A stretch of DNA of 64,000 bases from Octopus vulgaris (Eukaryota). Position 1 is the first letter of the stretch; each line of letters begins with the position of its first letter. Made by a program: the position numbers and the translations under genes. The DNA is taken from contig OX597826.1 of NCBI GenBank assembly GCA_951406725.2, positions 20,150,001 to 20,214,000 of the forward strand, given 5' to 3'. Positions 1 to 59,454 of the stretch are shown here, one piece after another. A model generated the notes under the pieces. That model did not search any database. It saw only the letters and a list, made by a program, of their open reading frames with translations, and was not told the DNA's origin.

Positions 1-561
1 GGATCCCTCGCTGGCCTTGTGCGCTTTGCGTGAGAGAGCGGCAGGCAGACAGCCAGACAGCTTCAGTGTTACTTAGTGAAGTTAAATAACAAACCGTAAC
101 CAACAGACTCCTTTGCAAACACAAAGAAATGCAAAATAAATACAAACATTATGTAAACAGAAACATGGTGACGTATTACTAAAGCGGCGGCGGTGGTGGT
201 GGGAGGGTTGACTGAATACTATTTAGTTCCTCTCTCTTTCCGATCTGACTTTTTTTTTGTTCGATCGTTTGTCTCTCATTTCACCAGGATCAATCAGAAA
301 GATAGCCATAGAGAATTATATTCAATTCTACCGGCTATACACTCTCACGTCGTATTTGTGGATTTGTTCCAATCCAGAAAATTCTGACAATTGACGAGAA
401 ACAACTTCACAACAACTTCTTTTCAGTCTTGAATATCGTTTTATTTATTTAATTCATTTATCATCCTTAAAAAATTATAATCGAATTTCTAACAAAGATA
501 TTTCTATGGTACAAGGATCTTTACAGTCCTTCAAGGATTTGTCAGGTTTAGAAGAAAATAG
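1..561 (+). promoter_or_regulatory. Putative promoter and non-coding first exon of the DUSP23-like gene
   Basis: CpG is locally retained here against a CpG-poor background. There is a GGCGGCGGTGG 5'UTR-like tract and a candidate donor ATAG|GTAAAC at 561/562 (alternative CAG|GTTTAG at 545/546). The TSS cannot be determined. Confidence 0.45.
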
Positions 562-12290: not shown

Positions 12291-12439
12291 TTTGAATGAG
12301 TTATGATGGAAACCAGCGCCGCTGCCGTATTCAAGGGGCCTGGTCCACCGGCCCCGCCCAGGAGCAGACTGAAACACAGAGATTATGGGCAGGGCCAGCA
12401 GCTTCTCGGCCCTACTACGTTATTCAGAATGTTTCACAT
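12291..12439 (+). CDS. DUSP23: Candidate first coding exon of the DUSP23-like gene, open in two frames (ATG 12296; ATG 12303/12306/12429)
   Basis: Strong acceptor TTTCTTTCTTTCTTTCAG|, donor CAT|GTATGT, and a GC-rich island in an AT-rich intron. Frame A (MSYDG...VSH) ends in phase 0. Frame B (MMETSAAAV...RMFH) ends in phase 2. Confidence 0.7.
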
Positions 12440-12880
12440 GTATGTATAGTTTTTATATTGTTACACACTGAGCAGAGGTTCAAATCACTTGAAAATTTTA
12501 GCTTTTTTGTTTTTATGTTGTTTCTGATAAATAAATATAAAATCATGCTTAATGAATCAATTGTAATATGTAATTAACATATTTATGTAATTGATTATTA
12601 TATTTATCTAATTATCATCTGTAATATATAATTATTAACTACAATATGTAATATTAATAATTATTTGATTTTAAATCATGTAATAAAAAAACAAGTCAAA
12701 AAATTCATCAACTATTAACATTATTTTTAATTGATTTGTAAATTATGTGACATTAAAATAATTTTTATAGTTTTTAACTGATTTCTTACTGGAAATATAT
12801 TTTAACTCCTACAGATTTGTAATTTCTATTATTTGTTAAATTTTCCAATATTTCTAATGCATTTGTGCTTGTGTGTGTGT

Positions 12881-12927
<47 letters not shown>

Positions 12928-13018
12928 TTTGAGAGTGAGAAACTGTATGTGTACACATACATACATGCACATATATATAAGTGTGTGTGTATGTATATAT
13001 ATATACACATATATATAT

Positions 13019-13050
<32 letters not shown>

Positions 13051-15186
13051 GTTGCTGTATTTTATATTTGTGAGCCATTTTATAAAATTGGTTGAAACAT
13101 TAGAGTGTCAGACAAAATGCCTTGTGGTGTTTGTTCTGGCCCTTAACATTTCTGGATTCGAACCCTATCAAGGTCAGATATGCTTTTCATCCTTTCTGAG
13201 CCAATAAAATAAAGTCAAGGAACTGAAAGGCAGTTCTCCCAACTTGCAGCTGTCTTTTAGGGGTTTGGCTGTATGAGGGAGGCATGATTCAAGAGGGTAG
13301 CTGCATCTGCTTTAAACTACATGTGGACCCTAAAACAGGGGCAGAGGTGTTCAGCATGTCACTACCAAACCACATTCAGTTGTGAATGATGGCCGAGATT
13401 GACCATCCATTGAAACTGTCTCCTGGTATTTCCGCTTTGAAATATGCAGACTTGTTCAACAAAATGTGAAAGTTTTTGTTCCTGTATTCCTTTTTTTTCT
13501 TGCTGTTTGTATTCATATTCCCTGCATCAGTGTAGGAACTGAGTTGTTTAAGCTGTTAACTACTTCATTTTTTGTGGGTTTTGTCAGATAAGGGACAAGC
13601 TACACTCATAACATTCTGCAGGGGCCTCCAGAGCTGGTCGGTGGTTGGAGTGGGGAATGGTTGGAACAAGTCACGACTCCAACCACCGATATTGTGGTAC
13701 GAAACAGAATTTCAAGATTTTGAACTATTCTCAGTCCTGAAACCAGTTCTAAGTGTTTTCAATGGAATGGATGCCATTAAAGGTACCTAAAGACTTCATG
13801 ATGGTAGTAAACTGGGGGACAGATTAACTTTATGCTCTAAATCCCATAGAACTGCCAAGAGTCCATGGGCTTTGTTCCTTAAATTAGATAAACTGAAGAT
13901 TTCTATCATTGTGTGAATATTTAATTCTGAAATTCTTGAAAGAACATTTGACAAGATCTTTCAGTTTACATATACAGTGTAAAGAAATCACACTGAATCA
14001 TAGCAGCTAAACCTCCCTCAATTCACTGCCTACTGTTTTAAAAAATGGAATGGCATTTTGGATAATGTAGACCTTTTTCTTAATATTTTTAATGTATTTT
14101 TTGTTATATGACTTTGCATAAGTGGAGGGGTTGGGCCCCTGCACCATTGGGGGAAGAGAGAAAATTAAACTCAGATCAGGGTATACTACATCTGAAAAAT
14201 AAGGATAGGATAGTCACAGAAGGAATGTCTTTGATTATAGTCTATTTGATCAGGGATGGTCACAACAAGAACGTCTTTGATCATAGTTTGTTCAATTAGG
14301 GCTGTCTTGGGTCTAAGCTACACCATCTCGTATACTTATTGTTGTTTAACCCCAGGTCTTCCTTGATGCAGTAGGTTAAGATCAAAGGCACTCCATTCGT
14401 GACCATCCCATGTTTTATATAGGCAAGTAATCCAGGACAATATTATCTAATGTGTTCTTTTCTAAGACAATAGGACTAAGTGTAATTTGAGGGAGATTTG
14501 ACTGCTATTTTTAACAGTCTGACATCAGAGACTTGCTAAGTCTAGGTGTACACCGAGGTAGATGCAGCCATAAATAAAAGTCATAATGATATTTAGGTTG
14601 GAGCAATGGGAAGTTGTGATGTTCTTGCCTTTCCTACTGACACAAACAGCATTTGTGGTTTCTGAGATTGATGGTGGAGGTATAGGTTGATTTTAATATT
14701 GCTTATCATCTGATTACTCTGATCCACAAGACGTTCAATCAAAGGCATTCCAGCCATGCCTATCCTGTCTTTTTAGGATCGTGTACAACTTCATTGTCAA
14801 ATAAGTCCTTTCTTTAAGGCAGTAGGATGGTATTTCAGGGAAATTTAATTGTTGGCCATTTAAATGACCACACAGAGGCTGTCATTTCATGACTCATTGA
14901 TGTTATTGGTAGTGGAGTTGGTGGTGATGGTGGTGGTAGTGGTGGTGGTGGTGGTGGTGGTGATGGTGGTGATGTTGATCTTATTTAGTTTATTTCCTAA
15001 AGGTAGGTTCCCATATCTTATTATTGTCATATATAACGTAATGTTTGGCTTTACATCACCCCATGGCATTTAGCTGTTTGCCTCCTCCTCATCATCATCA
15101 TCATCGCCATCATTCTCATCATCATCCACCGTCTCAGCTTCCTTGTATCTTCATTTCCTGTGAAATCTTTTGAAACAAAGATGCAT

Positions 15187-15227
<41 letters not shown>

Positions 15228-15392
15228 AGAGAGAGAGAGAGAAATATAGTGTGTGTGTGTGTGTATTATTTTCTCCTTGTTTGATATCATTTCTATCGAT
15301 ATCTTCTTTTCTCTTAAAACAACAAAACTACATTTTCTTGTCCTCATTGACTCTATTCAGCAATGCAAGGCACACACACACACACACAACTG

Positions 15393-15760
15393 TATGATTT
15401 TGGGTTCAGTCCCACTGTGTGGCACCTTTGGCAAGTGTCTTCTACTATAGCACCAGGCCAACCAAAGTCTTATGTGTGGATTTTGCAGATGGAAACTAAA
15501 AGAAGCCCATTGTACACTCACTCACACACGTGTGTGTGTGTGTCTGTGTTTATCTCCCACCACCACTTGACAACTGGATTTGTGCGTTTACATCCCTGAG
15601 ACTTAGGGGTCCAGTAAAAGGGTCCAATAGAAAAAGGACCAGGCTTAAAAAATTTTTTAAAAAAACAAGTACTTGGGTTGATTCATTCAACTAAGCAAAC
15701 TTTAAGATGGTGCCCCAGCATGGCCGTAGTCTATTGATTGAAACCAGTAAAAGACTAAAA
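15393..15760 (+). mobile_element. SINE family A, older copy
   Basis: GGTTCAGTCCCACTGTGTGGCACC...GGCAAGTGTCTTCTACTATAGC...GTAAAAGA tail. Confidence 0.7.
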
Positions 15761-15928
15761 GACTTGTGGGTCACTTGTCGTACTCAGTTTTGTGCATGTT
15801 TGTGTTTGAATAATTTTGTAGGAATATTAATTCAATTTGTCTAGAAAAAAGGTCAGTATTCAAACAGTAGCAGTTGAGTTCATTATGTATGTGTGTGTGT
15901 GTGTGTGTGTGTATAAATATATATATAT

Positions 15929-15980
<52 letters not shown>

Positions 15981-16778
15981 ATGCATGCATACCTACATAG
16001 TGTGTATAGCATCGAATACTAATGGTTTTTCCTGGTACATATACACTGCTCACTAATATCCTACAGTGTCTATATCTGTTACAAGTGAGATGTTTGTCCA
16101 GTATATTACTGGTACCAGTTTCATTGACTTTATCTGGATGCTATAGAATGAAGTCCCTGCCAAAAGCTGCCAAGATCTCCCAGAATTATGACCAGCATAT
16201 TGACCAATGTGTTATTATTTTTACCCAACTTTCTGTCTCACCGCTGTCCTTTATGTATTCCTCAGTTCTCTGCTCCATATAATGTCTCTATTGATTTGTG
16301 TCCACTGGTCATGACTGTTCATGCGTGCTGTTTATTGTTTCCCTACTGTGAAGCAAATCATGTGACAGTGAGTTGTAATTCTCACTTTCAACTGTTGCTG
16401 AATTAACAACACTTGTTAATTGATGCTGTTAATTGCTTTTACATACATATGAAAACCGTAATTATTCTAGAATTTTAGAATTTATAACTTGAAAACCCCT
16501 TTTGTATTCTGTAAGTATTCTTAAGCTGTAAACTATTTAAAACATGTTATGTTCTTTCAATGTTACAATAATAATAATTTAGAAAAATCATGTCAGTTAT
16601 TCATCCTGTTGAGTTTGGGTAGGATTACGACACATGGCTTTCTGTTTCATTAATGTTCTTTTGTCATAAATAATTTAGATTAATCCTGATTAGTTGTGGC
16701 ATCTTTTTAAAGTAATTTAATGGTAATTTTAGAAATGTAAAATGAGTTATCATTAATTGGTTTTACAATTTCTATACA

Positions 16779-16838
<60 letters not shown>

Positions 16839-17808
16839 TTATATATTGTTCAAAGACTATAAAGAAGATATCTGCTTTTATGAAATTCTTTTACTAATTC
16901 TTGAATAAGCTTACATGGTTGTTTTACTTGCTAGAAATAACACCCAAATCTCCTTGAAATCATTCTTTGCCCTCTTAAAAAGGAGGACACATTGAATAAT
17001 GTAGCCCTAGACACACTGTGCCAGAAATAGACATTATGAAATGGTCATTGCTAGGACATCTTTGGTCATAGATTATCTTGAACAGGAGCGACCTGGCACT
17101 AAACACCAGTAACTGCTCACCAAAGTATCATGTTTGTTTCAACTGATTTACATCGTCCCCTCTCCGGCTCAGCAACCCCACACTTCACAGATCGAGCCAT
17201 CCAGCACACCACTCCACTGCTACACTCAGCACTCCATTCGTCATTTAGAATAACAACAACAACAATTATCTCACACTCAGTTCTACTGTGACACCATTAT
17301 GAGCAATCGATGAGGGAGTCTCTTCATTCTTGCTTGACTGGCCAGAAATAGCAGCCAAATCTCAAATCTTAAAACTGGGGATGGTACGTTAAATAATGCA
17401 CTGACATTCCTAAAAAAAAGGATAGGATGATCATGGTTGAAATGTCTTTAATTATAAGTCAATCAGGGTTGACCTGGGACAAGTATACAGAAATTGAGTG
17501 AACACAAGAGAGAGAACAAGATGTCCAGGTTGTCACCTGACACCCATTGTCAGAGTCTACAGAATCAATGGGATTCTGAGAAATAGACTGGACACTGGAG
17601 ATAATATGTCCAGACACTGCCCCACACATGACTCATCATGGTATGCTGCTGTGTGGACAATATGGGGCTTAGCTAGGCTTACCTGCAAAACTAGATCTGT
17701 GCTAATGTTTCTGTTTCAATATCAAGTTTTGTGATGTGAATATCAGATTTATTCTTTACATTTCTACTTCTGCTTCCCACCCCTACCCCCATCTTATGTG
17801 TGTGCACA

Positions 17809-17854
<46 letters not shown>

Positions 17855-18189
17855 ACACCTGTACACATACAAACCCTCACATCATTATCTACTGAAATTC
17901 TCCCACTCTCTCTACTCTACTTAATCAAAAAAGGAAAAGACCTCATCACCTTCAAATAGTATCTGGACAAATCTGTAAAGGATAGGAGCCAAGACACCTC
18001 TACCTAGGTACAACTCCCTGAATGGGCCATGATACCACAAAGTATGACTTTAAAATGACCGAACAAATTCTATCAGCTGGTGCCATAAAGTTGTATTGTA
18101 TACAGTGCCCCTGAGCACTATACAATAGGTTAATTACATATTATATATATAAATGGTCTGGGCCAATTTTAGCTGAAACAACATACCTA

Positions 18190-18455
18190 AGTTAATCTTA
18201 CACACATACATGTGCATACTAAATATGCATATATATATATGTGTGTGTGTGTGTTTATGCATGTATGTACATATGTATACATATATATGTGTGTGTGTGT
18301 GTATACATGCATATATATATATGTGTGTGTGTGTTTATCTATGTGTGTATATATATATATGCATATATATATCATATCTATTTATGTCTGTATGTACGCA
18401 TGTGTGTGTGTATATATATATATTTATATATGTATATATGATCGTGTGTGTGTTG
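18190..18455. repeat. Compound (TA)n/(TG)n microsatellite
   Basis: Read directly from the sequence; explains the cluster of spurious ORFs here. Confidence 0.9.
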
Positions 18456-19086
18456 TGGTAGTATGTACTACTATTTCAAAGATAGTAATAATTTATTGTG
18501 GGAATTGGTGATTTCAGGCTCCCACAGTTTCCAGTCATTTTCATCTGAGTTTGGGAATCTGTAGTGAAGATTTGATAAGTCTTTGTTGTATTTACAGGTT
18601 GTAGGTTTGGTTTGACTGTACCTGGATTCCTCGGTGCAGTTTTTCTTTGTTTTTGCTTTCACTGGTTTTTATCTTTTAATGTCGGTAGAATTTGTTTGTG
18701 TGTAGGGGAATGTCTGTTAGTTTTGGACAATAGTTCTGTAAAGAGATGGAACAAGATATGATTGGTCTCTACAATGGCTAATTTGGCTATTAAAAGGAGG
18801 GAAAGGGAGAGGGAGGTGTGTAGAAGAAGAAAAAGGAAGAGAGAGAGAGAACAACCTATTTTGGAAGATGGAATATAGAGAGCAGTAGAATTGTAATTCT
18901 TTTGGCTTAAGTCTTTTTTTTTTGCTTGAAGGTCATTTGGGGTCAGTGAGAATTGTGATAATATACAATGGTAGTAGAATTAGTTGGTTGCCTGGTTGGT
19001 TGGTTGGTTGGTGGGTAAGTTTTGTTGTGATTGAGGTGTATGTTAAATACATTGTGTTGGTCGTTAATTGTGGTCAAAGAATGACT

Positions 19087-19310
19087 TTAACCCTGCAGCA
19101 TTCAAATTACTCAAGCAAATGTAATGATTATCTGTTCTCATTGATTTAAGTTAATTATACGTTATTGTGTTGTTTCAGACTTTTCATCACAAGATTGTTT
19201 ATTTTTATAATGACATTGCAGGATAGGTGTGAGAGACCAGATCTGACTTGTTTGAATATAGAACAAGTAGAACATTTGGGTTGGATATGGTCGGTTGAAA
19301 TGCTAAAGGT
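19087..19310. mobile_element. piggyBac-type (TTAA-CCC...GGG-TTAA) MITE
   Basis: TTAACCCTGCAGCATT...AATGCTAAAGG ends. Homologous to 43296-43524 and to the split copy at 9560-11032. Confidence 0.65.
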
Positions 19311-20164
19311 GTGTGTGTGTGTGTGTGTGTATGTGTGTGTGTAACAACATGGGGGCATGATACCATCTTTCAACTCATTAAATTATGTTAAACCATCCAA
19401 CCCCTGCCAGTGTGGAAGGTGGAAATAAAATGAACGCACACACATACAAGATTTTTGTTATTCAGCTATACTCTACCTTGTGTAGTGAGTACGAAATTCT
19501 CCCATGTTTTTAGAACTTGTGAATTGCATCATGGTTTGTACAAGTAATGATGGTGGACATGTTGACTATTAACAATCACAAGAATAAATCTGTTGAAACA
19601 TGAAGTAAATTCTTTCATTGTTTTTCTTTACACAGATTAATTCTACCATTTGTAGAATTAACTTTATATGAATTTAAATTTGCTCAAGTACTTTATGATG
19701 GTTATGCATTATGTGGTGTAGGGTGGGGGTGGTGTGGGGAGAGGCTGTGCTTGTGGTTATTGAAGGTCCACTAAGACTGATGAGATTGATGTGATTAATG
19801 GTTTACTTTGAACACCTTCAGGAAAATATGTGAGCAAGCAGAGAATTATATAGATCTGGATGGGTTCTGGGAAGTGAGGTACTGAGAGGGTGACAAAAGT
19901 GGGGACAGAGTGAGAGAGAGAGAGTAAGAGAGTATGAAAGGAGCTAGTTCAGTGGGACAAAGTAGAGGAGGAAAAGGGAGGCAAAGGAGGATATACTGAT
20001 TGCAATTTGAAGAGCCAGTACCAATTTGAAGAATACTGGAAAATCTGTGAATTAAAAAAAAAGCAAAAAAAAAGCAAAGAAAAACAAAATCCCCTGAAGT
20101 TAGATTAGATCTTTGAAACTATTTCCATCTTTAAAAAAAAACTATACTTTCTCATCTCTTCCAG

Positions 20165-20318
20165 TCTCCTCTCGGTCTGTGTTATATTTGGAGCTCATTT
20201 AACAGCTGCTGAGTCTCTTCAGTCAAGTACTGGCACCACCATTTCAAGTGATGCATCAATAGAGGTTCCATGCTTGCCTACCATTGCTCTAGATGCAAGT
20301 TCTACACCCCTTGCAGTG
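20165..20318 (+). CDS. DUSP23: Candidate frame-switching exon (phase 2 to phase 0) encoding a hydrophobic segment and a Ser/Thr-rich linker
   Basis: Polypyrimidine acceptor CTTTCTCATCTCTTCCAG| and donor GTG|GTAGGT; 154 nt. Joined to frame B of the previous exon it reads ILLSVCVIFGAHLTAAESLQSSTGTTISSDASIEVPCLPTIALDASSTPLAV with no stop and exits in phase 0. Confidence 0.6.
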
Positions 20319-20978
20319 GTAGGTAGTAACTTTATGTCTAATTGTGCTTTTATCACCCACTTCATGTTAATGATGGGAGCCCATCAAAGCTGCACAATTG
20401 GCTGCTATCTCCCCCTCCCTCCCCCCTTTCATTTGTAGTTGATTACTCTGCTAACCACTGTAGATTCTGTTAGTACTAATTTCATGTAATACTGCTTATC
20501 CCCCTTCCCTCCACTACCACCACCACCACCACCACATCCTCACCCCCACATTCCAGTTTAGCATTTATTCTTATTTTAGAATATTATTGCATTTCAAGAC
20601 ACAAAATTATCAAAAACACAATTTTATGATTATAAAAAAAAAATCAAAAAATAAAAAAAAAACCCCCTATAAACATTACCATTCTTGCAATTCTGTTTCT
20701 TCTGGCACTTTAATGTCCTGAGCTCAAATCTGACCAGCGGTCAGCTTTTGAGGCAGCAAACTAGCAGAATTGTTTGCTGGACAAAACGTGTAGCAGCATT
20801 CAACTGTCTTTACATTCTGGGTTCAATATCTGCCAAGGTTGACTTTACCGTTCACCCTTTTGGGGCCAATAAAAATAAATACCAGCTGAGCACTGAGATC
20901 GACATCATTGACTTAGCCCTGCTTCCAAAATTTCAGACCTTGTGCCTATGGTACAATGGATTGTTAATATTATTATCA

Positions 20979-21012
<34 letters not shown>

Positions 21013-24000
21013 AATTCTGCCAAGATTGACTTTGCCTTTCATCCTTTTGGGGTTGATTAAATAATTACCAGTTATACACTGGAGTTGATATAATCGACTT
21101 AATCCCTTCCCCTAAATTTCAGGCCTTGTGCCTTCGGTAGAAAGGATTATTATTATTATTATTAATATTATTATTATTATTAATTTTATTATTATTATTA
21201 ATTTTAACCCTCAAAATTTCTCATTAATATGAAATGATCAAATTATCATTTATAAAGTGAAGCAATTACATGTAATTAAAGGATTAATTAGTTTGGCTTC
21301 TTCCCCCCCCCATGTGTTTTACCAGCTTATAGAATTATCTCAGTGTTATCTAAGACTGTTGGAACAGTTTTGCATCCTCAGAATATATTTGATGTGAGTC
21401 AGGGTAGACGAGAAAGTGTTGCTTAGTGTTCATTGAAGCTTGTGGTGTGTAGGGGTGGTACTAGTGATATATTGGGGGCTTTGTAGTTGTTTAGCCCCAG
21501 CTCAGGAGTAGGCAAACTTTGGATTGCACACATCCCAGCCTTGACCATCCTGTCTTTGCTGAAGATGTATAAATGTATCCAGGATATATTTTAGCACTGT
21601 ATACATAAGTCTTTTCTCTTTTTCAATCTGGTAGAGTGTGATTTGAGGGAGATTTGCCTGCTATTTCTGATAGATTCTTCATGGAACTGTTAAATAAAGA
21701 AGCTTAGCTGTTTGTGATGTAACAGGATTGTAAACATTTGCTGTTGTCTCTCACTATTTCATAAGAGTTATCGAATATTAAGACCAATTCTAGAAAACTA
21801 GGAATCTAGTGATAGTCTGTGTTGGTAAGAATTAGTCCAGTAGAGTTCATAGAAGTTTGGTAAATCTAGTTGCCATGAGTGATAAAGAATCTAATGTTTC
21901 AAACACTTGATGTGTGTCTGAGAGTGAAGAAGAGAAAGTGCCATTGTTGCTTTGGTTGCAAACGAGTAACAATGTCAGTTGTGTTTAGTCTGTATATAAA
22001 CATGGTTCTTCTATCAAAAATATTCCATAGAATATAATTCTGCAACTACAAGTTGCATCTGATTCTCTTTTCACTACATTGCAATCACCAGGAACTGCTG
22101 CCACATTACAAAAAACAAAAAATCGAAACAAAATCACAATACTGACATTTACTAACAAATTATAACTAATTACACAGATTTAATTTCACAAACATGAATT
22201 CCAATTAATATTATACCATTAACCTTTCATAGAATTGTTTGTAATAAAACCATGCTTTTGGAAATTTTAATATCTTAAAATCATTGATTATTGGCATGAA
22301 GTTTGCAACCATCATTAATAGCATCTTTAAAACTGTGATGTTTGGGCTATGATTCATCTCCATTTATGTGTAAAACCATTCCTTCTCAAAACTCTATCTT
22401 ATTTCCTAATATTATTCCTCTCATTAGTTTTCATCTGCTTCCCAGCCACAAGGATTTCGGTTCAGCTCCACGGTTCAGTAACATAGACATACGTCCTTTC
22501 TTTTATGGCCCTGTGCTGACCAAAGACTTCAAAGAGATTGCTGTTGGTCTGCATCAACAGGACTTGTATTTTTCAGTAAAATCAACAAAAAAGAGTTCTG
22601 TGAACTTGCCATGGAAAACCCAACATTTTGGACAGAGTTGCTCTTTGGAGAAAACTTCATAAAAGAGAAATTTCTCTCCTGCCAACTTCCCTGAAGAAGG
22701 ACTTGTTCAAAATGGATTTTCCTCTTCCCATAACATCTGAACACAACTCTTTTTGTTCATTTTATCATATATATACTCGGACATGAGTTTTTTTTTGTTT
22801 AATTTATCTTTCATTACACTGCCCCCCCCCCCTCTCTCTCTCTTCCACACACACCAATCAATTGTGTGAAGTTCAATAAAGATCAGTTATATCTCACAAT
22901 AGAAAAACTGTAATGTTGTTTAGCCCCAGGAGAGCCCTGATTGAGCAGAGTTATGATCAAAGGTGTTACATTCATGACCATTTCAGCTACATATGTGTGT
23001 CCATAACTAATTATCTAACTTGTCCTTCCATCTTGAAGACAGTAGAGTGTGATTTGATTGTTATTTCTCTCAAACTGAATGGCCACTGAGATATCATTAA
23101 GGAATTAAATTGATAGTATTTTCCCACCCCTAATTAGTAAAAACCTTCCTTTATTTCTTCAATAATTCTCAGTTTTCAGTTCCTGATGCCCAATTTTTGT
23201 CCACTCCAATTTACCATTCTGTCATGTCTCTGGTTGTCTTCTGTCTCTTTTATTGTCTCCTGGAATTCAGTCTGTTGTCACTCATCTTTGAGATGTGTCT
23301 AATCCAAATATATTTCAACAGTTTTATCAATTTAACAATGTTTGTGGGACAAACTGGGAATTACATATTCTGTCTGCTTTCATTCATTTCTGGCCATATT
23401 TCTTGTGGAACTCAATGGCCATGTTTTAATTAATTTTGAAAATAACAATTTGGAGGGATTTTGTAAAATAATAACTTTTTCTATTTGTTTCATCCATAGC
23501 TATGAGTCTGACAAAATACACTTTGTCAGAATCATGGTTATGGGTTAAACATACTGGCACTCAGATTTTTTTGAGTTCTTTGGTCTAAGTGGCCTAGCCA
23601 TGTTCCTTTGAACCTGTCACCTTTAAGAAGTTTCCCAATATTAATCTGGTTTTTGGAAAATAACAAAATGTTCTTGCATTGAGTTATGATGGAAGATTTT
23701 ACTCTTATATCTGAACAGTTTAACTTTGGAAGTTTCTGTTAAAAAAAAAGGGGGTGGCTTTGGGCAGATTAAAAGGGTTAAGCATCTCTTGCACAAGATT
23801 ACCAGTGATCATTGTTGCTTGTTGTAAAGATGAAATATTTTAGATTTTCTTATTTTTACATATTTATCTTTGTTTGTTTTTTACTAACAAACCTGGTTTT
23901 ATTCTTACCTGAATGTGATTGAGTGCTTTTTTAATGTTAAAACTTCCAATCCAGTTTATATTTGATAGTAATATTTCTGGAAACATTATATACTTTGATA

Positions 24001-25923
24001 AATTACTCACCTATTTCTAATTGCCATTTGTAAAACAATTGTTGTTATTTGAGGGAGATATGGCTGCTATTTTTAGCAGGTTGAGTGACCCTATAGAATG
24101 TCACTCATTGGCTCTGTAACATTCCAGGAGGAAGATTTCTGGTTACTGTAGTAGAATGATTTTATTACTTAATTACCTCCTGAAACACAATTAAAATGCT
24201 TTCAGGTGGGTTAATTAATTTATTCATTTGTTTATTTTTTACTACTTTAAACTCTAACTAAAACAAAAATTCTGTCCTTATGCCTAAACATAACCATTGT
24301 TTTATATTTCAGAATTCCTGAAATATCCCACAGTTGTAATGTTTAGAATGAAGTGTTATAAATAATAAAAGTTACATAGTAGAGGTAGACAATCAGAGGG
24401 AGGAGGGCCACATGACAAATAAAGAAATACCAAACCATCAAGGAATGAGGAATGTTATGTGGGTTATGATGAAAATGGAAGAGAAATAGGTTTCTTTTTT
24501 TTATTTATTAATTTTCATCATTGTCTGGAAGAACCGGCAATGGTCATGTGTCATTTCTTTTCTTCTTTGAACAAAAAGAAAAACAAATGAATATTTGGTT
24601 CGTTATTTGAATACAATTTCAATATGATTTTGTAATTTAAATATAATTTAGCTATTTAAATATTCATCCACATATGTCGATATAATATTAATATTACAAA
24701 TACCGTGAAATACTGACCACATATGTAGATATAATAATTAGTTGTATAAAAGACAATGAAACACTAATGATTCAAAATACTTTTTTAGCGGCAATATTTC
24801 TTGATGCTATTTTGTCAGATATTCTGCTTAATTAAAAAGCATGCTGTCTATTAATTATTTTAGATTAAACTAACAGTAGTAATTAGAATGAATACTCTTT
24901 ACTCTGTGTAAACATTTAAATAGATGTTTTAATATAACATGAAATAAATTTAGTACCAAATAAATTAAAAGTTATTAAATATTTTCTTAATTTTGATAAT
25001 AAATAGATTTCATACTTTTTTATTGAATAATTTATCTGTTTTGTATTTTTTGTACATTTATATATAATCTAATATATTTCTTGGATAAGACAAATCTGTA
25101 CATAATCTACAACTTTACCAAATATTATTCTTCCACAAGAAATCTGTGCAAATTCTACAACTCTTTATTTCACTCTTTATTCTTCTGCTAGCTTTAAGTT
25201 TTCCTTAAAACTTATCCTTCTCCTGCTATACTCAACACTGCCATAGTTTGAAGCTTGCTTTTAATATGTTGACATTTATTACAAGAGAAATTTATGTTTG
25301 TATGAAATTTTAAACCCTGTAACAAGATCATATTAATGTAAAGTTATTTTAATTTAACGATTTTTATGAAGATGTATCTAATGATAAATAGCAGCAAGTG
25401 ATTGGTTGGTTGGTTGGTAGCATATAAAATTAGCCCCACAATTAGTGCTTTTCTTTTTATATTCAAGAAAATCTTACTTCCACTCCTTTCATAAAGAAAT
25501 AGCTTCAGTTCCATAAAGTTTATTGCCAAGAAATACTTAATTTCCTGCTCTTAATTATTACATAATACTAATTACTAAACTTCACCAAGAGATTTGATTC
25601 TAAAGACACTTTTATGTTAGAATCCTTTTCTTCAACATTATATTATTATATATTTGTTTATTCTGATTTATTATATTCGTTTAAATTACTGTAATGTTAC
25701 CCAGTCATAAAACCATTTTTATAAATTACAATTATAAATAGGAATTAACAGAATAAGCCAGCCAGCCAACCAACCAACCGACATCTGTGAAACAGGTTTA
25801 TTTAAACTGCTACAGTTGTTATATAACATACAATTTTGTTTGTAGTGTGTTTTTTTTTGTTTTGTTGTTGTTGTTTTCCTGCCTATATATTGAACTTCTG
25901 AACAAGCTATTCGTTTATTGAAG

Positions 25924-26055
25924 ATACCAGAACGTAGTGGCAGTAATAAAGTAAGTAAAAGTACCAGTAACCCAGACATCTTCCCGTCCAGTATGAACAA
26001 CAACAACAACAACAACAATGACAGCAACCAACACACAAAGGCTAATCCAGCACAA
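25924..26055 (+). CDS. DUSP23: Candidate symmetric (phase 0-0) exon with poly-Asn; could also be an alternative first exon (ATG 25993)
   Basis: TTGAAG| acceptor (weak) and CAA|GTAAGT donor. 132 nt reading IPERSGSNKVSKSTSNPDIFPSSMNNNNNNNNDSNQHTKANPAQ, in frame with the exon at 32309. Confidence 0.6.
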
Positions 26056-27990
26056 GTAAGTGATTCCAAATTGAAATTTTTGTAAACAAGAAAATTTTTT
26101 TAATCATAATTATTCACAGACATTGTTCCAATAACTAATTAAACGGCCTTAAATTATGTTTCGAGAAAATACTTCGTTAAACGATGTTCATATTCGTTAT
26201 ATGGAAATGATTTTTTACCATTTATTTATTATTTTCGATTATTTTTACAAACTATGTTGTTTGGCCCACAGCTCAGTCTAAGCAGTCCTTCGCACAAACG
26301 TATTCCAGCCATGAGCATCCTCCCTTATTGTGTATCGGGAACAACATTATCCTTGTGCCCTTCTAGTGTCCTTCATTTTTGAAAGTGTAGTTTGAGTATT
26401 TGAGGGAGATTTGGCTACTGTTTCTGTCAGGTTGGATGCCCACTAAAGGCTTTTTGCATTAAAACTGTATAAGTTTAATTATGTGGAGAAGAAGAAATGT
26501 GTGACTGAAATGAAGGAAGCTTCACTGGAAAAAGGAAATTACTTGAGTTACATTAATGACCTACTTTGACGACAGAGAGAAATGTACTGAGTGTGAATTA
26601 TTAATAAATATCTAATTTATGTTAACAATAAAAGCTACAGAGTTTTATAAACTGACAGCCAGCCGGCCATGCCATGAAACAGTTGCTAACCACCAGACTG
26701 TAACTAAGTCTGTATATCCTATGACGGGTTCTGACTTTGTGTACCACACCCAGAATTTCATCTACCATTTCTGTTTGTATTTAGGCATGGCTGACTGGTT
26801 CAGAAGAGTTTTTCATAACCACAAGGTACCAGGTTCAATCCCACTGCTTGGCATTTTGAGTGTCTTTTAATATAGCCTTGGGTCAATACAATCCTTATGA
26901 ATGAAATTAGATAGAAGGGAACTGGGAGACTGTGTCGAAGTCTGTTTGATGAGCTGTAACTGTAATTCAATGGTTCAGCCTTGCTGCATATTGGGCCATT
27001 TTGATTCATTCTGTGAATTAAGAGTACACTTGTCTATGGGATACTCAGCCACATACATCTTAATGTAGCAACGAGTTCCGTTGGTGGAATAACTGAGTAC
27101 TCGTTGCAAAGATGGAGGGTGTCACCACCATCATCATCATCAATATCATTGCTACCATTACGAACATCATCATTACCACTACCATCATCACCACTGATGC
27201 TGCTGCCACCACCACCACCATTACCACCCCTACCACTACTAACATCATCAATTACTGTCATTACCACTTCTGTCTTCATTATCATCACCACCATCATCAT
27301 TATCATCATCATCATCATCATGTCTTGTGAAGTGGAACAAAGGCATTATTAAAATTGGGTTCAAATCTTATCTGTAGAAATCTGTTGAACCTAAACCTGG
27401 TTCCTGAATGATAATGTTTACTAAGCTGAGGATTGAATTTGTAATCTTTTCCTCTCCCTCCCCCACACTTCACCCACCCTCCCATTACATTATCTTGACC
27501 ACTAACACTCCCTCTCTCACTTCCTTCTCTATTTCTTCATTTTTTTTTCACTCTTTGTTTTTGTCACTCCCTTTTTTTTCACTCTTTTGTCTCTCTCCCT
27601 TTTTTCATTTTCTCTCTTTCTTCTCATTTTTTCTTCCTGCTTTAGATTTGACCTTTCTCCTTTTTCTAATCACACACATCTCTCCTCCCACCATCAATCC
27701 ATAAATACTACCAATACATTCTCAAATTTTCATTCACACTACAAGACCCTTTCCAATGAGCAACACTGGTTCCATGGCTCCATTCTTTGAAATGATTAAA
27801 TACGAACTGCTATTGGAACTTACATACCATGTACAGGAAACTTTGTTACCACTTCTATACACCATTTTCCTCGAATAATGCATCTGCAACTACAATATCT
27901 TTATGCACCTTATTTCTACTTTCATTCTCTTATTTCCCTCTACATTCCCCATCTTTTCCACCATAATTTGAACTCAAATATCTTCTCACA

Positions 27991-32308: not shown

Positions 32309-32474
32309 ATTATACCAAAAATCCCCAAAAACTTCTCCTGGGTTGTTGATGGGTTTTTAGCAGCCCTTGGATTTCCTAATGAAGCTGCCAACATGATGTA
32401 TTTAGTAAAACATGGCATAAAATACCTCATTAGTTTAACTGCGGAACTTACCCCTTCCTTACAGGGATTCGAAG
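32309..32474 (+). CDS. DUSP23: DUSP23-like phosphatase, first catalytic-domain exon
   Basis: TTGACAG| acceptor and GAAG|GTAGGT donor. Encodes IIPKIPKNFSWVVDGFLAALGFPNEAANMMYLVKHGIKYLISLTAELTPSLQGFE, matching the PPNFSWV...G(V/I)xxLxSLT start of DUSP23. Confidence 0.92.
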
Positions 32475-36179: not shown

Positions 36180-36286
36180 ATAAATTAGTTTGGTCTCAAA
36201 TTAAGATAAAAGACTTCTCACCTCCAACTCTTCAACAAGTCGATGAATTCCTGAAAGTTGTTGAAAAAGCTCGTTCTGAAAATTCG
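36180..36286 (+). CDS. DUSP23: DUSP23-like phosphatase, general-acid loop exon
   Basis: TTTTTTCCAG| acceptor and TCG|GTAAGT donor; phase 1 to 0. Encodes DKLVWSQIKIKDFSPPTLQQVDEFLKVVEKARSENS (IxDFxPP motif). Confidence 0.93.
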
Positions 36287-51049: not shown

Positions 51050-53548
51050 TCACTTGTCCTGCCGGGTCTTCTCGCGCACAGCACACTTCCAGAGGTCTCG
51101 GTCTCTAGTCATTTCCTCAGTGAGACCTAAAGTTCGAAGGTCGTGCTTCACCACCTCGTCCCAGGTTTTCCTGGGTCTGCCTCTTCCACAGGTTCCCTCA
51201 ACCGCTAGGGTGTGGCACTTTTTCACACAACTATCTTCATCCATTCTCGCCACATGACCATACCAGCGCAAACGTCTCTCTTGCACACCACAACTGATGC
51301 TTCTTAGGTCCAGCTTTTCTCTCAAGGTACTTACACTCTGCCGAGTGTGAGTACCGGCATTACACATCCATCGGAGCATACTGGCTTCATTTCTAGCGAG
51401 CTTACGCATATCCTCAGCAGTCACGGCCCATGTTTCACTGCCATGTAGCATGGCTGTTCGTACACACGCATCATACAGTCTGCCTTTCACTCTGTGCGAG
51501 AGGCCTTTTGTCACCAGCAGAGGTAAGAGCTCTCTGAACTTTGCCCAAGCTATTCTTACTCTAGCAGTTACACTTTCAGCACACCCGCCCCCGCTGCTGA
51601 CTTGGTCACCTAGGTAACGGAAACTATCAACTATTTCTAGTTTTTCTCCCTGGAAAGTGACGGAAGTTGGTCTCAGAGCATTTTCAGTGTTTATTGTTCC
51701 TGAGCATCTGCCACATACAAAAACCATCTTCCTAGTTAGCCTTCCTTTGACATTGCTGCATCTCTTATGTGTCCATAGCTTACACTTGGTGCATCTTATA
51801 GAGTTTCTACCTACACCTATTCTACAGATCGAGCAGGGCCATCTACCTGAAGGTGTTTGTGATTTGTCTACCTTCCTACTGATTACGACTTTGGTTTTAG
51901 CTAGATTGACTCTGAGGCCCTTCGATTCTAATCCTTGTTTCCACACCTGAAACTTCTCCTCCAGTTCTGATAGCGACTCAGCAATTAGAGCAAGGTCATC
52001 AGCATAGAGGAGCTCCCAAGGGCATCCTGTCTTGAATTCCTCCGTTATTGCCTGGAGGACTATGATAAATAGGAGGGGGCTGAGTACTGAGCCTTGGTGG
52101 ACTCCTACCTCTACCCGGAATTCTTCACTGTACACATTTCCAACCCTCACCCTACTAGCGGCGTCCCTATACATGGCCCGCACAGCTCTCACTAACCATT
52201 CATCTATCCCTAGTTTCCTCATTGCCCACCAGATAAGGGATCGGGGGACCCTGTCGAAGGCTTTCTCCATGTCAACAAAAGCCAGGTACAGGGGCTTATC
52301 TTTGGCTAGGTATTTCTCCTGCAGCTGCCTTACCAGGAATATAGCATCAGTAGTACTTTTCCCTGGCACAAACCCAAACTGCATCTCATCTAAACTAACT
52401 CTCTCTCTAATTAGTTGGGCTATGACCCTCTCCGTAACCTTCATCACCTGGTCCAACAGCTTGATACCTCTGTAGTTATTTGTATCTAGGGCATCACCTT
52501 TACCTTTGTAGCAGTTGACTATTATACTGCTACACCAGTCATTGGGTATGACCCCTTTGTGTATCACCTGATTAACTATACGGATGACTAGGCTATAGCC
52601 GACACTACCAGACATTTTGAGCATCTCTGCAGTGATTCCTGATGGGCCTGGGGCTTTCCCTGTCTTCATGCTTCTAATTGCCTTAGCTACCACGGAACTA
52701 TCAACTCGGATAGCTGGTCCCTCTGTTGGGTCAACATTCGGCAGACTCTCTTTATCCCATTCATTTTCTTCATTCAGCAACCTTTCATAGTGGCATCTCC
52801 AAACCTCTCTCTTTGCATCCTCATTTAGCGCAAGTGAACCATCTTCCATGCGAACACACTTCTCTCCTACCACATCATGATTCTCTCTCACACACTGTCT
52901 TGCAACACGAAACACCTCCAGTCTTTGGTCCTCACGGCGCAGAACATTGGCAAATTTTTTCTTATCTGCTTCCCCTCTGGCTAAATAAACCTGTCTCCTA
53001 GCTTCTCTTTTGGCAGTCTGATACAATCCCCTGCTACCCCCATTTTTCCAGACCTTCCAAGCCTGTCTCTTTTCTCTAATAGCCCTGTCTACAATATTGT
53101 TCCACCACCACGTTATTCTAGGTCGAGAGGGGACTTTGCACCAGCCACAGATCTGGTCAGTGGCTCTCAGCAGGTTGTCCCTTAGAAACGTCCAGCTGTC
53201 TTCTACCCCCTGTGATGCTCTATCCCCTTCTACTTCGTCAGAGGCTTCAAGTAATATGTCCCTAAATCTCTGTCCATTTGCAGGATCTTTAAGCTTCCAG
53301 ATCCTTCTTCTCCATATTTGTCGTCTTCTGGTTGTCCTCCTAGTCCTGATCCTAAAGTCACTAACTACCAGTCTATGTTGTGGGGTACATTCTTCACCTG
53401 GGAAGGTTTTGGCATTTATAAGCAGCCATCTCTCCCTTTGCCTTGTAAGGATGTAGTCAATTTGGCTGGTATGTTGGCCCGATTGGTAAGTGACTAGGTG
53501 GCTGGTAGGTTTCCTGAAGTTAGTGTTGCGGCATTTATAAGCAGCCAT
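51050..53548 (-). CDS. RTE ORF: APE endonuclease C-terminus, reverse transcriptase and embedded PHD-type finger (832 aa)
   Basis: SQIDYIL and QHRLVV (APE end); KAPGPSG, YRGIKLL, QFGF, FVDMEKAFD, GVHQGSVLSP, YADD, FRYLG and RRLRWYGHV...GRPRKTW (RTE RT). Confidence 0.95.
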   Translation of the reverse strand: MAAYKCRNTNFRKPTSHLVTYQSGQHTSQIDYILTRQRERWLLINAKTFPGEECTPQHRLVVSDFRIRTRRTTRRRQIWRRRIWKLKDPANGQRFRDILLEASDEVEGDRASQGVEDSWTFLRDNLLRATDQICGWCKVPSRPRITWWWNNIVDRAIREKRQAWKVWKNGGSRGLYQTAKREARRQVYLARGEADKKKFANVLRREDQRLEVFRVARQCVRENHDVVGEKCVRMEDGSLALNEDAKREVWRCHYERLLNEENEWDKESLPNVDPTEGPAIRVDSSVVAKAIRSMKTGKAPGPSGITAEMLKMSGSVGYSLVIRIVNQVIHKGVIPNDWCSSIIVNCYKGKGDALDTNNYRGIKLLDQVMKVTERVIAQLIRERVSLDEMQFGFVPGKSTTDAIFLVRQLQEKYLAKDKPLYLAFVDMEKAFDRVPRSLIWWAMRKLGIDEWLVRAVRAMYRDAASRVRVGNVYSEEFRVEVGVHQGSVLSPLLFIIVLQAITEEFKTGCPWELLYADDLALIAESLSELEEKFQVWKQGLESKGLRVNLAKTKVVISRKVDKSQTPSGRWPCSICRIGVGRNSIRCTKCKLWTHKRCSNVKGRLTRKMVFVCGRCSGTINTENALRPTSVTFQGEKLEIVDSFRYLGDQVSSGGGCAESVTARVRIAWAKFRELLPLLVTKGLSHRVKGRLYDACVRTAMLHGSETWAVTAEDMRKLARNEASMLRWMCNAGTHTRQSVSTLREKLDLRSISCGVQERRLRWYGHVARMDEDSCVKKCHTLAVEGTCGRGRPRKTWDEVVKHDLRTLGLTEEMTRDRDLWKCAVREKTRQDK

Positions 53549-53651
53549 CTCTCCCTTTGCCTAGCCATCTCTCCCTTTGCCTAGCCATACAGATATGCTG
53601 ATGCAAAGAGGAAAAATAGAACTCAAAATATGAGTATATGTATAGTTTTAT

Positions 53652-58925: not shown

Positions 58926-59250
58926 CTATGAAGCAAACAGCTTAAACTTTCGTATGTTTTTTTTTTGAAATATTTGTTTTGTTATTTTCTTGAAACATTT
59001 CCATGTCACTGAATATCTTTGTTCACAATTGTTTATATAATTACTTTCTGAAAATCCCTGAAACTAAATTATGACCAGACAGGTTTCAAGCCAAACTGTA
59101 ATAAATGTTCAGTTAATTTTTCATAATTCCATTTGCAAAAATATTCTTGTGTTTTGATTGTTGCAAGGAATGGTGATATAATCTTCATTGCTGTAGTGTG
59201 CACAAAATCGCCCTTTATCTGGTCTTAACCAGATGTTTCTTGACTTGTAG

Positions 59251-59454
59251 GCTGTAGCTGTACATTGCCTTATGGGAAGAGGTCGGACAGGCTGTATGCT
59301 GGCTTGCTATTTTGTGAAGGAATGGGAACTGCCTGCCGAAGATGCACTTCGCTACGTGAGGGAATTGAGGCCCGGTTCCATTCAGACTAGAGTACAAGCT
59401 GATGTCGTACGGAAATTTGAGGAAAATTTCAAAGGAGCTCGCGGTATAACATAA
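59251..59454 (+). CDS. DUSP23: DUSP23-like phosphatase, last exon with the catalytic CX5R
   Basis: TTGTAG| acceptor, phase 0. Encodes AVAVHCLMGRGRTGCMLACYFVKEWELPAEDALRYVRELRPGSIQTRVQ...GIT*, matching the DUSP23 VHCxxGxGRTGxMLACY...LRPGSI pattern. Confidence 0.95.
   Translation, partial: AVAVHCLMGRGRTGCMLACYFVKEWELPAEDALRYVRELRPGSIQTRVQADVVRKFEENFKGARGIT

What the first reader, a model, noticed from the sequence alone, without database searches (positions are those of the whole stretch)
12429..26055. Signal-peptide/anchor-like segment and S/T/N-rich stalk ahead of a normally small soluble phosphatase
Seen: the 12439/20165 junction builds MFHILLSVCVIFGAHLTAA-ES, a hydrophobic core ending in small residues, followed by ~80 aa of Ser/Thr/Asn-rich linker. 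Established: vertebrate DUSP23 is a ~150-aa protein that begins a few residues before NFSWV. Inference: starting at ATG 12429 gives a cleavable signal peptide (257 aa), and starting at 12303 gives a signal anchor. Either would imply a secreted, lumenal or membrane-tethered cysteine phosphatase.
Basis: partly seen in the sequence, partly recalled or inferred. Interest (0 to 1): 0.7.

Follow-up and report, generated by a model that had tools for sequence, protein, structure and literature searches.

The report
Octopus phosphatase with splice-switched export signal
In octopus and cuttlefish, one exon of a phosphatase gene holds two overlapping reading frames, and an optional exon swaps the enzyme's ordinary water-soluble start for a conserved water-repelling segment that likely sends it into the secretory pathway, where this kind of enzyme is rarely found.

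Summary
The six-exon model gives 299/257-aa ORFs with MFHILLSVCVIFGAHLTAA and an 80-aa linker, 44% S/T/N. Exon 20165-20318 is spliced in 4 of 4 runs laid. Exon 12291-12439 holds two frames. Skipping the 154-nt exon uses ATG 12296 and gives a soluble 250-aa form whose N-terminal motif also occurs in abalone and a bivalve. Including it stops that frame and joins the +1 frame (ATG 12303/12306) to the phosphatase. Both forms occur in Octopus records and in a cuttlefish cluster. The cassette exon changes conservatively at protein level (p=0.0003) and its hydrophobic core stays hydrophobic despite 7 of 10 changes (p=0.004); the +1 frame of exon 1 does not (p about 0.2). A 9-11-residue core plus [T/S]-A-A fits a cleaved, long signal peptide better than an anchor; a start at 12429 lies behind four upstream AUGs. 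ER entry is inferred, not shown; no signal-peptide predictor was available. The catalytic last exon also exists in two alternative versions. Verdict: new variant of a known kind.

The parts
12291..12439 (+). Exon E1, dual-frame coding exon. Frame C from ATG 12296 (48 aa, ancestral soluble N-terminus); frame A (+1) from ATG 12303/12306 (n-region and first residues of the hydrophobic core)
   Evidence: both frames fit one DNA with 0 of 45 violations in octopus and 0 of 44 in the cuttlefish cluster; shuffled null at least 25
12296..12298 (+). ATG of the E2-skipped soluble form (250 aa); T at -3, A at +4; becomes a 63-aa overlapping ORF when E2 is included
   Evidence: P0123, P0002, P0122, P0103 begin here or at the same place
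12303..12308 (+). ATG ATG of the E2-included form (299/298 aa); 12306 has A at -3, G at +4; a Met at this place in Argonauta and cuttlefish
12429..12431 (+). In-frame ATG just before the hydrophobic core (257-aa form); fifth AUG of the exon; Thr in Argonauta
20165..20318 (+). Exon E2, 154-nt (3n+1) frame-switching cassette: hydrophobic core LLSVCVIFGA, c-region HLTAA, then 36 conserved residues with an invariant Cys; stop codon of frame C at 20210
   Evidence: one match in the own genome
25924..26055 (+). Exon E3, Ser/Asn-rich linker shared by both forms; in-frame ATG 25993 would give a 179-aa short form
32309..32474 (+). Exon E4, start of the DUSP23-like domain (PKNFSWV)
36180..36286 (+). Exon E5, general-acid loop (KDFSPP)
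59251..59454 (+). Exon E6a, one of two alternative last exons carrying the catalytic loop (HCLMGRGRT); E6b (HCAHGKGRT) lies 13.9 kb beyond the window end at G000:C13:20227853

Best explanation
This octopus DUSP23-like phosphatase gene has a dual-frame first coding exon and a 154-nt cassette exon that swaps the N-terminus: skipping gives a soluble-type enzyme from ATG 12296, while inclusion gives a protein from ATG 12303/12306 whose conserved hydrophobic segment likely acts as a long, cleaved signal peptide and would carry the phosphatase into the ER lumen or out of the cell. Shown: both splice forms, both open frames, conservation in three coleoid genera, protein-level selection on the cassette. 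Inferred: leaky scanning past the weak-context AUG 12296 to the strong AUG 12306 seven to ten bases on; SRP recognition of ILLSVCVIF; cleavage after T-A-A (residue 61); activity in the lumen. In each splice form the other AUG yields only a 54-63-aa dead-end peptide, so splicing would decide the compartment. Choice between two last exons would independently decide which active-site loop the enzyme carries.
For: Both forms as proteins: Octopus +E2 P0113, P0121, P0120 and -E2 P0123, P0002; cuttlefish cluster 3 of 7 members +E2, 3 of 7 -E2, 1 fragment. RNA-type contigs: E2/E3 joint in 4 of 4 runs; E2 contig of 214 = 30+154+30 letters in 3 of 4 runs, the shape of a cassette bubble; a contig starting exactly at 25924 in X1 and X17, which needs a second upstream partner not ending in G (E1 ends in T; E2 and the intron end in G). 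Selection on E2: 30 of 51 residues identical to cuttlefish; substitutions conservative against 3000 neutral simulations (mean BLOSUM62 0.67 vs -0.64, p=0.0003; Argonauta p=0.007); core changes at 7 of 10 places yet mean KD 3.06 vs null 0.95 (p=0.004). Control: frame A of E1 is not conservative (p=0.19-0.22), 21 of 44 frame-C third positions differ. Signal anatomy in 3 of 3 genera: net charge +4/+5 before the core, -2/-3 in the 20 residues after, Thr/Ser at -3 and Ala at -1 (small residues at P3/P1 per PMC2638155, passages). Long signals of 40 or more residues can export proteins (PMC2447879, abstract). AlphaFold helix 37-64, disordered 64-135, domain at pLDDT above 90.
Against: No signal-peptide predictor was run and no protein was detected. 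From 12303/12306 the signal would be 60-61 residues, beyond the 13-36 given in PMC2638155. The hydrophobicity test is significant for cuttlefish only (Argonauta p=0.066; first 15 codons p=0.18). An open frame A with both ATGs kept arises in 18-28% of simulations without selection on frame A. All 3 of 3 O. bimaculoides records seen lack E2. No E2 relative was found outside three genera; no squid or nautilus record was seen. The catalytic domain is shared with the soluble form, and a catalytic cysteine would be prone to oxidation in the lumen (recalled). The null model is crude (fixed transition bias, no base-composition bias).
Confidence: 0.55

Rival explanations
1. The splice switch is real and the +E2 protein is made, but helix 37-64 is a membrane-binding or protein-binding element (possibly acylated at its conserved cysteines) and the phosphatase stays facing the cytosol.
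For: The core is only 9-11 residues and sits 45 residues from the likely start. AlphaFold makes one 28-residue helix rather than a short core. Cys51 and Cys82 are invariant in 3 of 3 genera. The 36 residues after the putative cleavage site are the most conservatively changing part (p about 0.001), which suits a binding motif. Human DUSP23 is cytoplasmic and centrosomal (PMC2893100, passages).
Against: The charge pattern (+4/+5 before, -2/-3 after) and the [T/S]-A-A motif are kept in all three genera. The core is hydrophobic at nearly every position, not on one face only (sequence).
Confidence: 0.24
2. E2 is a poison exon: inclusion puts a stop in the ancestral frame and sends the mRNA to nonsense-mediated decay, and the 299-aa ORF is only the longest ORF that annotation pipelines pick.
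For: E2 is non-triplet and the frame-C stop at 20210 lies 106 nt before the next junction. Frame A of E1 shows no sequence-level selection. Non-triplet poison exons are a common class (PMC13247117, abstract and section list).
Against: E2 changes conservatively in frame A, also downstream of the frame-C stop. The +E2 form assembles in 4 of 4 runs and runs unbranched through E2-E5 in X12 (762 = 198+154+132+166+107+5). Contig depths of 43 vs 134 (X1) and 28 vs 65 (X17) hint at a third or more, though the tool calls depth a poor measure.
Confidence: 0.1
3. The basic 43-residue N-part plus short hydrophobic segment is a bipartite mitochondrial signal that delivers the phosphatase to the intermembrane space.
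For: Basic N-part followed by a hydrophobic stretch and a small-residue cleavage motif. N-domains of long signals can act as mitochondrial signals (PMC2447879, abstract).
Against: The N-part is Pro/Gly-rich, disordered in the model (pLDDT below 50 over 1-36) and not conserved in sequence (24 of 46).
Confidence: 0.07
4. The segment is an uncleaved type II signal anchor that holds a lumenal phosphatase in the membrane, as the first reader proposed for the 299-aa form.
For: Upstream start is favoured; charge difference points to N-in, C-out (rule recalled); best 19-mer KD 1.69-2.04.
Against: His, Arg or Glu-Val-His interrupts the stretch after 9-11 residues, and cuttlefish has Glu there. A rough insertion-energy sum for the best 19-mer is unfavourable (+2.2; scale values recalled).
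Confidence: 0.04

Closest known systems
Human DUSP23/VHZ (PDB 2IMG, 4ERC)
   Same: Best solved match, E=2e-33 over residues 147-290; NFSWV start, general-acid Asp and HCxxGxGRT loop align.
   Different: 150-151 aa with the domain starting at residue 5-6; cytoplasmic and centrosomal (PMC2893100, passages). No N-terminal switch; one catalytic exon version is recalled, not checked.
PTEN-Long (PTEN-L)
   Same: An animal cysteine phosphatase whose alternative N-terminal extension is reported to bring about secretion (PMC5706501, passages).
   Different: Made by an upstream in-frame CUG start adding 173 aa, not by a frame-switching cassette exon; a different phosphatase subfamily.
TpbA of Pseudomonas aeruginosa
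   Same: A DUSP with a 28-aa signal peptide, working in the periplasm, core broadly similar to DUSP23 (PMC4409338, passages): the fold can work outside the cytosol.
   Different: Bacterial, constitutive signal, no splicing.
Non-triplet alternative splicing with dual-coding regions (Athavudeen 2026, PMC13247117; INK4a/ARF appears in its reference list)
   Same: A non-triplet event decides which frame of a shared stretch is used.
   Different: Its three classes are NMD, alternative C-terminal length and dual coding downstream of the event; 'N-termin', 'start codon' and 'translation initiation' occur 0 times in its main text. Here the dual-coded exon lies upstream, has two AUGs, and the cassette picks which one reaches the enzyme.
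Long two-domain signal peptides (NtraC model, PMC2447879)
   Same: 40 or more residues with an export-competent C-domain (abstract).
   Different: Described for vertebrate single-pass membrane proteins; here the N-domain is the by-product frame of another isoform's coding exon.

Membership tests
DUSP23-like atypical dual-specificity phosphatase | HCxxGxGR(T/S) catalytic loop | tested here: met
   HCLMGRGRT in E6a, HCAHGKGRT in E6b; Pfam DSPc above its cut-off on E6a
DUSP23-like atypical dual-specificity phosphatase | General-acid Asp loop and NFSWV start aligned to human DUSP23; best solved match is DUSP23 | tested here: met
   top 2 of 9 matches, E=2e-33
DUSP23-like atypical dual-specificity phosphatase | Single small DSP domain, no other folded domain | tested here: met
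DUSP23-like atypical dual-specificity phosphatase | About 150 aa with no N-terminal extension, as in human | tested here: not met
   250-301 aa in coleoids; extensions also in other molluscs
DUSP23-like atypical dual-specificity phosphatase | One-to-one orthology by phylogeny | not tested
   no tree built; molluscs hold several paralogues and tandem domains
DUSP23-like atypical dual-specificity phosphatase | Phosphatase activity | not testable with these tools
   needs an assay
Cleaved eukaryotic signal peptide | Basic n-region, hydrophobic h-region, polar c-region | tested here: met
   3 of 3 genera
Cleaved eukaryotic signal peptide | Small uncharged residues at -3 and -1 | tested here: met
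   T-A-A, T-A-A, S-A-A; rule as in PMC2638155
Cleaved eukaryotic signal peptide | Length 13-36 aa from the start codon | tested here: inconclusive
   19 aa from ATG 12429, 60-61 aa from the better-placed ATG 12303/12306
Cleaved eukaryotic signal peptide | Predictor score; ER entry and cleavage | not testable with these tools
   no SignalP/DeepTMHMM; Atlas look-up gave only scores under 0.8
Type II signal anchor | Uninterrupted hydrophobic run long enough to span the membrane (about 17-21 aa, recalled) | tested here: not met
   run broken after 9-11 residues by His/Arg/Glu
Poison (NMD) exon | Non-triplet exon with a premature stop more than about 50 nt before a junction (rule recalled) | tested here: met
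   stop at 20210, 106 nt before the E2 end
Poison (NMD) exon | No protein-level selection on the exon | tested here: not met
Poison (NMD) exon | Included form unstable unless NMD is blocked | not testable with these tools
   contigs show presence only
Dual-coding class of PMC13247117 | Dual-coded stretch lies downstream of the non-triplet event | tested here: not met
   here it lies upstream

The most novel reading that the evidence does not exclude
Coleoid cephalopods evolved a secretory-pathway or secreted cysteine-based tyrosine phosphatase by overprinting an ancestral exon: a 154-nt cassette exon toggles one gene between a cytosolic and an exported enzyme, while two alternative last exons toggle the active site, giving four enzymes, with the exported ones acting on phosphotyrosine or phosphoserine of lumenal or extracellular proteins in a tissue-dependent way.
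Probability: 0.35. Interest if true: 0.85.

Novelty: new variant of a known kind. Interest (0 to 1): 0.68.

Why it matters
Catalytic domains of animal cysteine phosphatases normally face the cytosol (recalled); PTEN-Long is the main reported exception. A conserved, splice-controlled exported form would be a direct candidate for removing phosphate from lumenal or extracellular proteins, and can be tested with two tagged constructs. The gene is also a clean, dated example of overprinting: the old frame stays conserved (40 of 48), the new frame drifts (24 of 46), and a new non-triplet exon under protein selection decides which AUG reaches the enzyme, a layout that classifications built on downstream frame shifts would file as decay. 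The protein sequences are already in databases under routine names; I found no paper on them.

Tried and rejected
Homologue search with the E1/E2 region (P0113 residues 30-100) among 30-163-aa proteins: no candidate. Search with the soluble N-terminus (P0103 residues 1-90): 2 hits among 12 candidates, both coleoid; the motif RxR[VI]Q[GS][AG]W in abalone P0132, Solemya P0094 and P0005 was seen by eye and has no E-value. ESM Atlas on residues 43-141: best 0.78, below the tool's 0.9 mark, not used. Pfam on E1, E2, E3: nothing at the cut-offs; one chance-level row on E3 (E=0.44) ignored. E2 as a repeat-derived exon: one match only in the own genome, which the tool says does not prove rarity. A second copy of E4/E5 between the two last exons: none by own-genome search or tblastn on 20 kb downstream. 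The look-up of sequencing runs listed no holder on record as RNA; RNA is inferred from the spliced joint. 'Open frame A proves selection' rejected (18-28% by chance). 'S/T/N stalk implies glycosylation' rejected (shared with the soluble form; sequon absent in cuttlefish). Earlier findings of the scan: none. Paper searches gave no case with this layout by their listings (titles and abstract starts only). No fold search or complex job was run. No supplements were read; those of PMC13247117 could list similar events.
Full report
Locus. The window is G000:C13:20150001-20214000 of a 2.8-Gb genome; database matches make it an Octopus. Six exons with GT..AG introns build a DUSP23-like phosphatase. 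The domain's best solved match is human DUSP23, E=2e-33, and AlphaFold on an 18-sequence alignment gives a confident domain from about residue 141, a helix at 37-64 and disorder elsewhere.

Is exon E2 real? Contigs of 4 of the 21 listed runs were laid on 19900-26500. The joint 20318/25924 (GT..AG, 5605 skipped) stands in 4 of 4, from four studies. The runs are only guessed to be RNA, but a spliced joint is what RNA gives. In X1, X5 and X17 the E2 contig is 214 letters, exactly 30+154+30, as a cassette exon gives in an assembly graph with 31-letter words. In X1 and X17 the next contig starts exactly at 25924, which needs a second upstream partner not ending in G; E1 ends in T, while E2 and the intron end in G. 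That contig is 410 letters: E3+E4+E5 plus the five bases shared by the two last exons. In X12 one 762-letter contig runs unbranched through E2-E5, so the skipped form is rare there or was dropped.

The missed mechanism. A search with E4 found 98 representatives. P0002 (O. sinensis) is identical over E4 but begins MSYDGNQRR: it starts at ATG 12296, reads E1 in another frame and skips E2. The window's skip model equals P0123 and its inclusion model equals P0113. All four combinations of E2 and last exon are annotated in Octopus. The cluster of the cuttlefish record P0004 has 7 members: 3 with E2, 3 without, 1 fragment; the skipped form P0103 is on 33 contigs and the full included form P0104 on 3. 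The two cuttlefish N-termini fit one DNA at a +1 offset with 0 of 44 violations, against at least 25 in 500 shuffles, so the dual-frame exon is shared by octopus and cuttlefish, lineages that split very long ago (about 270 million years, recalled). Argonauta has the included form (P0114). Frame C is the old one: 40 of 48 residues match cuttlefish, against 24 of 46 for frame A, and its motif RxR[VI]Q[GS][AG]W is visible by eye in abalone, Solemya and an unnamed mollusc-like protein.

Selection. E2 is 30 of 51 identical to cuttlefish and 37 of 51 to Argonauta; the catalytic part is 140 of 153. Against 3000 simulations of unselected change with the same number of differences, E2 substitutions are conservative (p=0.0003 and 0.007). 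The ten-residue core changes at 7 places in cuttlefish but stays hydrophobic (KD 3.06 vs 0.95, p=0.004); in Argonauta the same test gives p=0.066. The same kind of test on frame A of E1 gives p=0.19-0.22, and keeping that frame open with both ATGs happens in 18-28% of simulations. So E2 is under protein-level selection in frame A, while the 43 residues before the core look like passengers. The null is crude, and hydrophobicity alone is common in this AT-rich DNA (4.6% of 47003 windows).

How it most likely works. In the included mRNA the AUGs come in the order 12296 (T at -3), 12303, 12306 (A at -3, G at +4), 12385, 12429. By the usual scanning rules (recalled) many ribosomes would pass 12296 and start at 12303/12306; few would reach 12429. 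The product has a basic N-part (+4/+5), a 9-11-residue core, then [T/S]-A-A and an acidic stretch in 3 of 3 genera. Small residues at -3 and -1 are the cleavage rule (PMC2638155, passages), and signals of 40 or more residues can export proteins (PMC2447879, abstract). His, Arg or Glu after the core argue against a stable anchor. I therefore favour a long cleaved signal and a lumenal or secreted enzyme (0.55). Rivals: cytosol-facing membrane or partner binding (0.24), poison exon (0.10), mitochondrial intermembrane space (0.07), uncleaved anchor (0.04). In the skipped mRNA only AUG 12296 (250 aa) or 25993 (179 aa) reaches the domain; 12303/12306 end after 54-55 residues.

Against. No predictor, no protein evidence. 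All 3 O. bimaculoides records seen lack E2. No E2 relative appeared outside three genera among 852 candidates of 159-508 aa or among shorter proteins. The stretch after the putative cleavage site is the most conserved part of E2 and has an invariant Cys, which a plain spacer would not need. A catalytic cysteine may oxidise in the lumen (recalled), although a bacterial DUSP with a similar core works in the periplasm (PMC4409338, passages).

Second switch. A second catalytic last exon lies 13.9 kb past the window. The two share 29 of 60 residues, no more than either shares with other molluscan domains (24-34), yet each is conserved within coleoids (56 and 57 of 60). No second E4/E5 was found between them.

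Literature. 'octopus' + 'DUSP23': 0 papers. 'DUSP23' + 'signal peptide': 5, none on this by listing; one (TpbA) read in passages. Cephalopod + dual specificity phosphatase + secreted + signal peptide: 1, unrelated by title. PTEN-Long is the nearest animal precedent (PMC5706501, passages). A 2026 survey of non-triplet splicing lists NMD, C-terminal and downstream dual-coding outcomes and does not mention start codons or N-termini in its main text (PMC13247117, abstract and passages). The library lacks most subscription journals, so absence from print is not established.

Verdict. Real, conserved, and more intricate than first read: a splice-controlled, frame-switching N-terminal swap that likely exports a DUSP23-like phosphatase. 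New variant of a known kind; interest 0.68.

Noticed in passing
window 59251-59454 and L002 (G000:C13:20227853-20228059): Two alternative last exons each carry the catalytic loop (HCLMGRGRT vs HCAHGKGRT); 29 of 60 residues identical, each conserved within coleoids; RNA-type contigs end exactly at their branch point.
   Followed up: partly
window 59233-59250: An upstream acceptor gives MFLDL-stop, a form lacking the catalytic loop, annotated as P0120; the 410- and 762-letter contigs show no branch at the end of E5.
   Followed up: partly
L012 1682-1732: A further short terminal exon used by the O. bimaculoides record P0099, also without the catalytic loop.
   Followed up: no
window 1-561 and L011: CpG-undepleted stretch with a possible donor at 562; may be the promoter and first exon of this gene and holds several ATGs; CpG is also high over much of the 9 kb upstream, so the sign is weak.
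   Followed up: partly
proteins P0069, P0015, P0117: Other DUSP23-like proteins with N-terminal hydrophobic segments (a marine sample protein and two prokaryote-like ones, one resembling a lipoprotein signal), suggesting export of this fold arose more than once.
   Followed up: no
proteins P0128, P0129: Mytilus DUSP23-like isoforms end in a hydrophobic C-terminal tail, a possible tail anchor.
   Followed up: no
proteins P0132, P0001, P0008: Abalone has four tandem DUSP23-like domains, the first lacking the catalytic Cys motif, and a feather star has two.
   Followed up: no
window 51053-53560, minus strand: An 836-codon stop-free frame that reads like a LINE-type endonuclease/reverse transcriptase inside the last intron; the family name is recalled, not tested.
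   Followed up: no
window 32309 acceptor: Cuttlefish records differ by one Gln at the E3/E4 joint (P0004 vs P0102, P0107 vs P0103), a likely tandem-acceptor choice.
   Followed up: no
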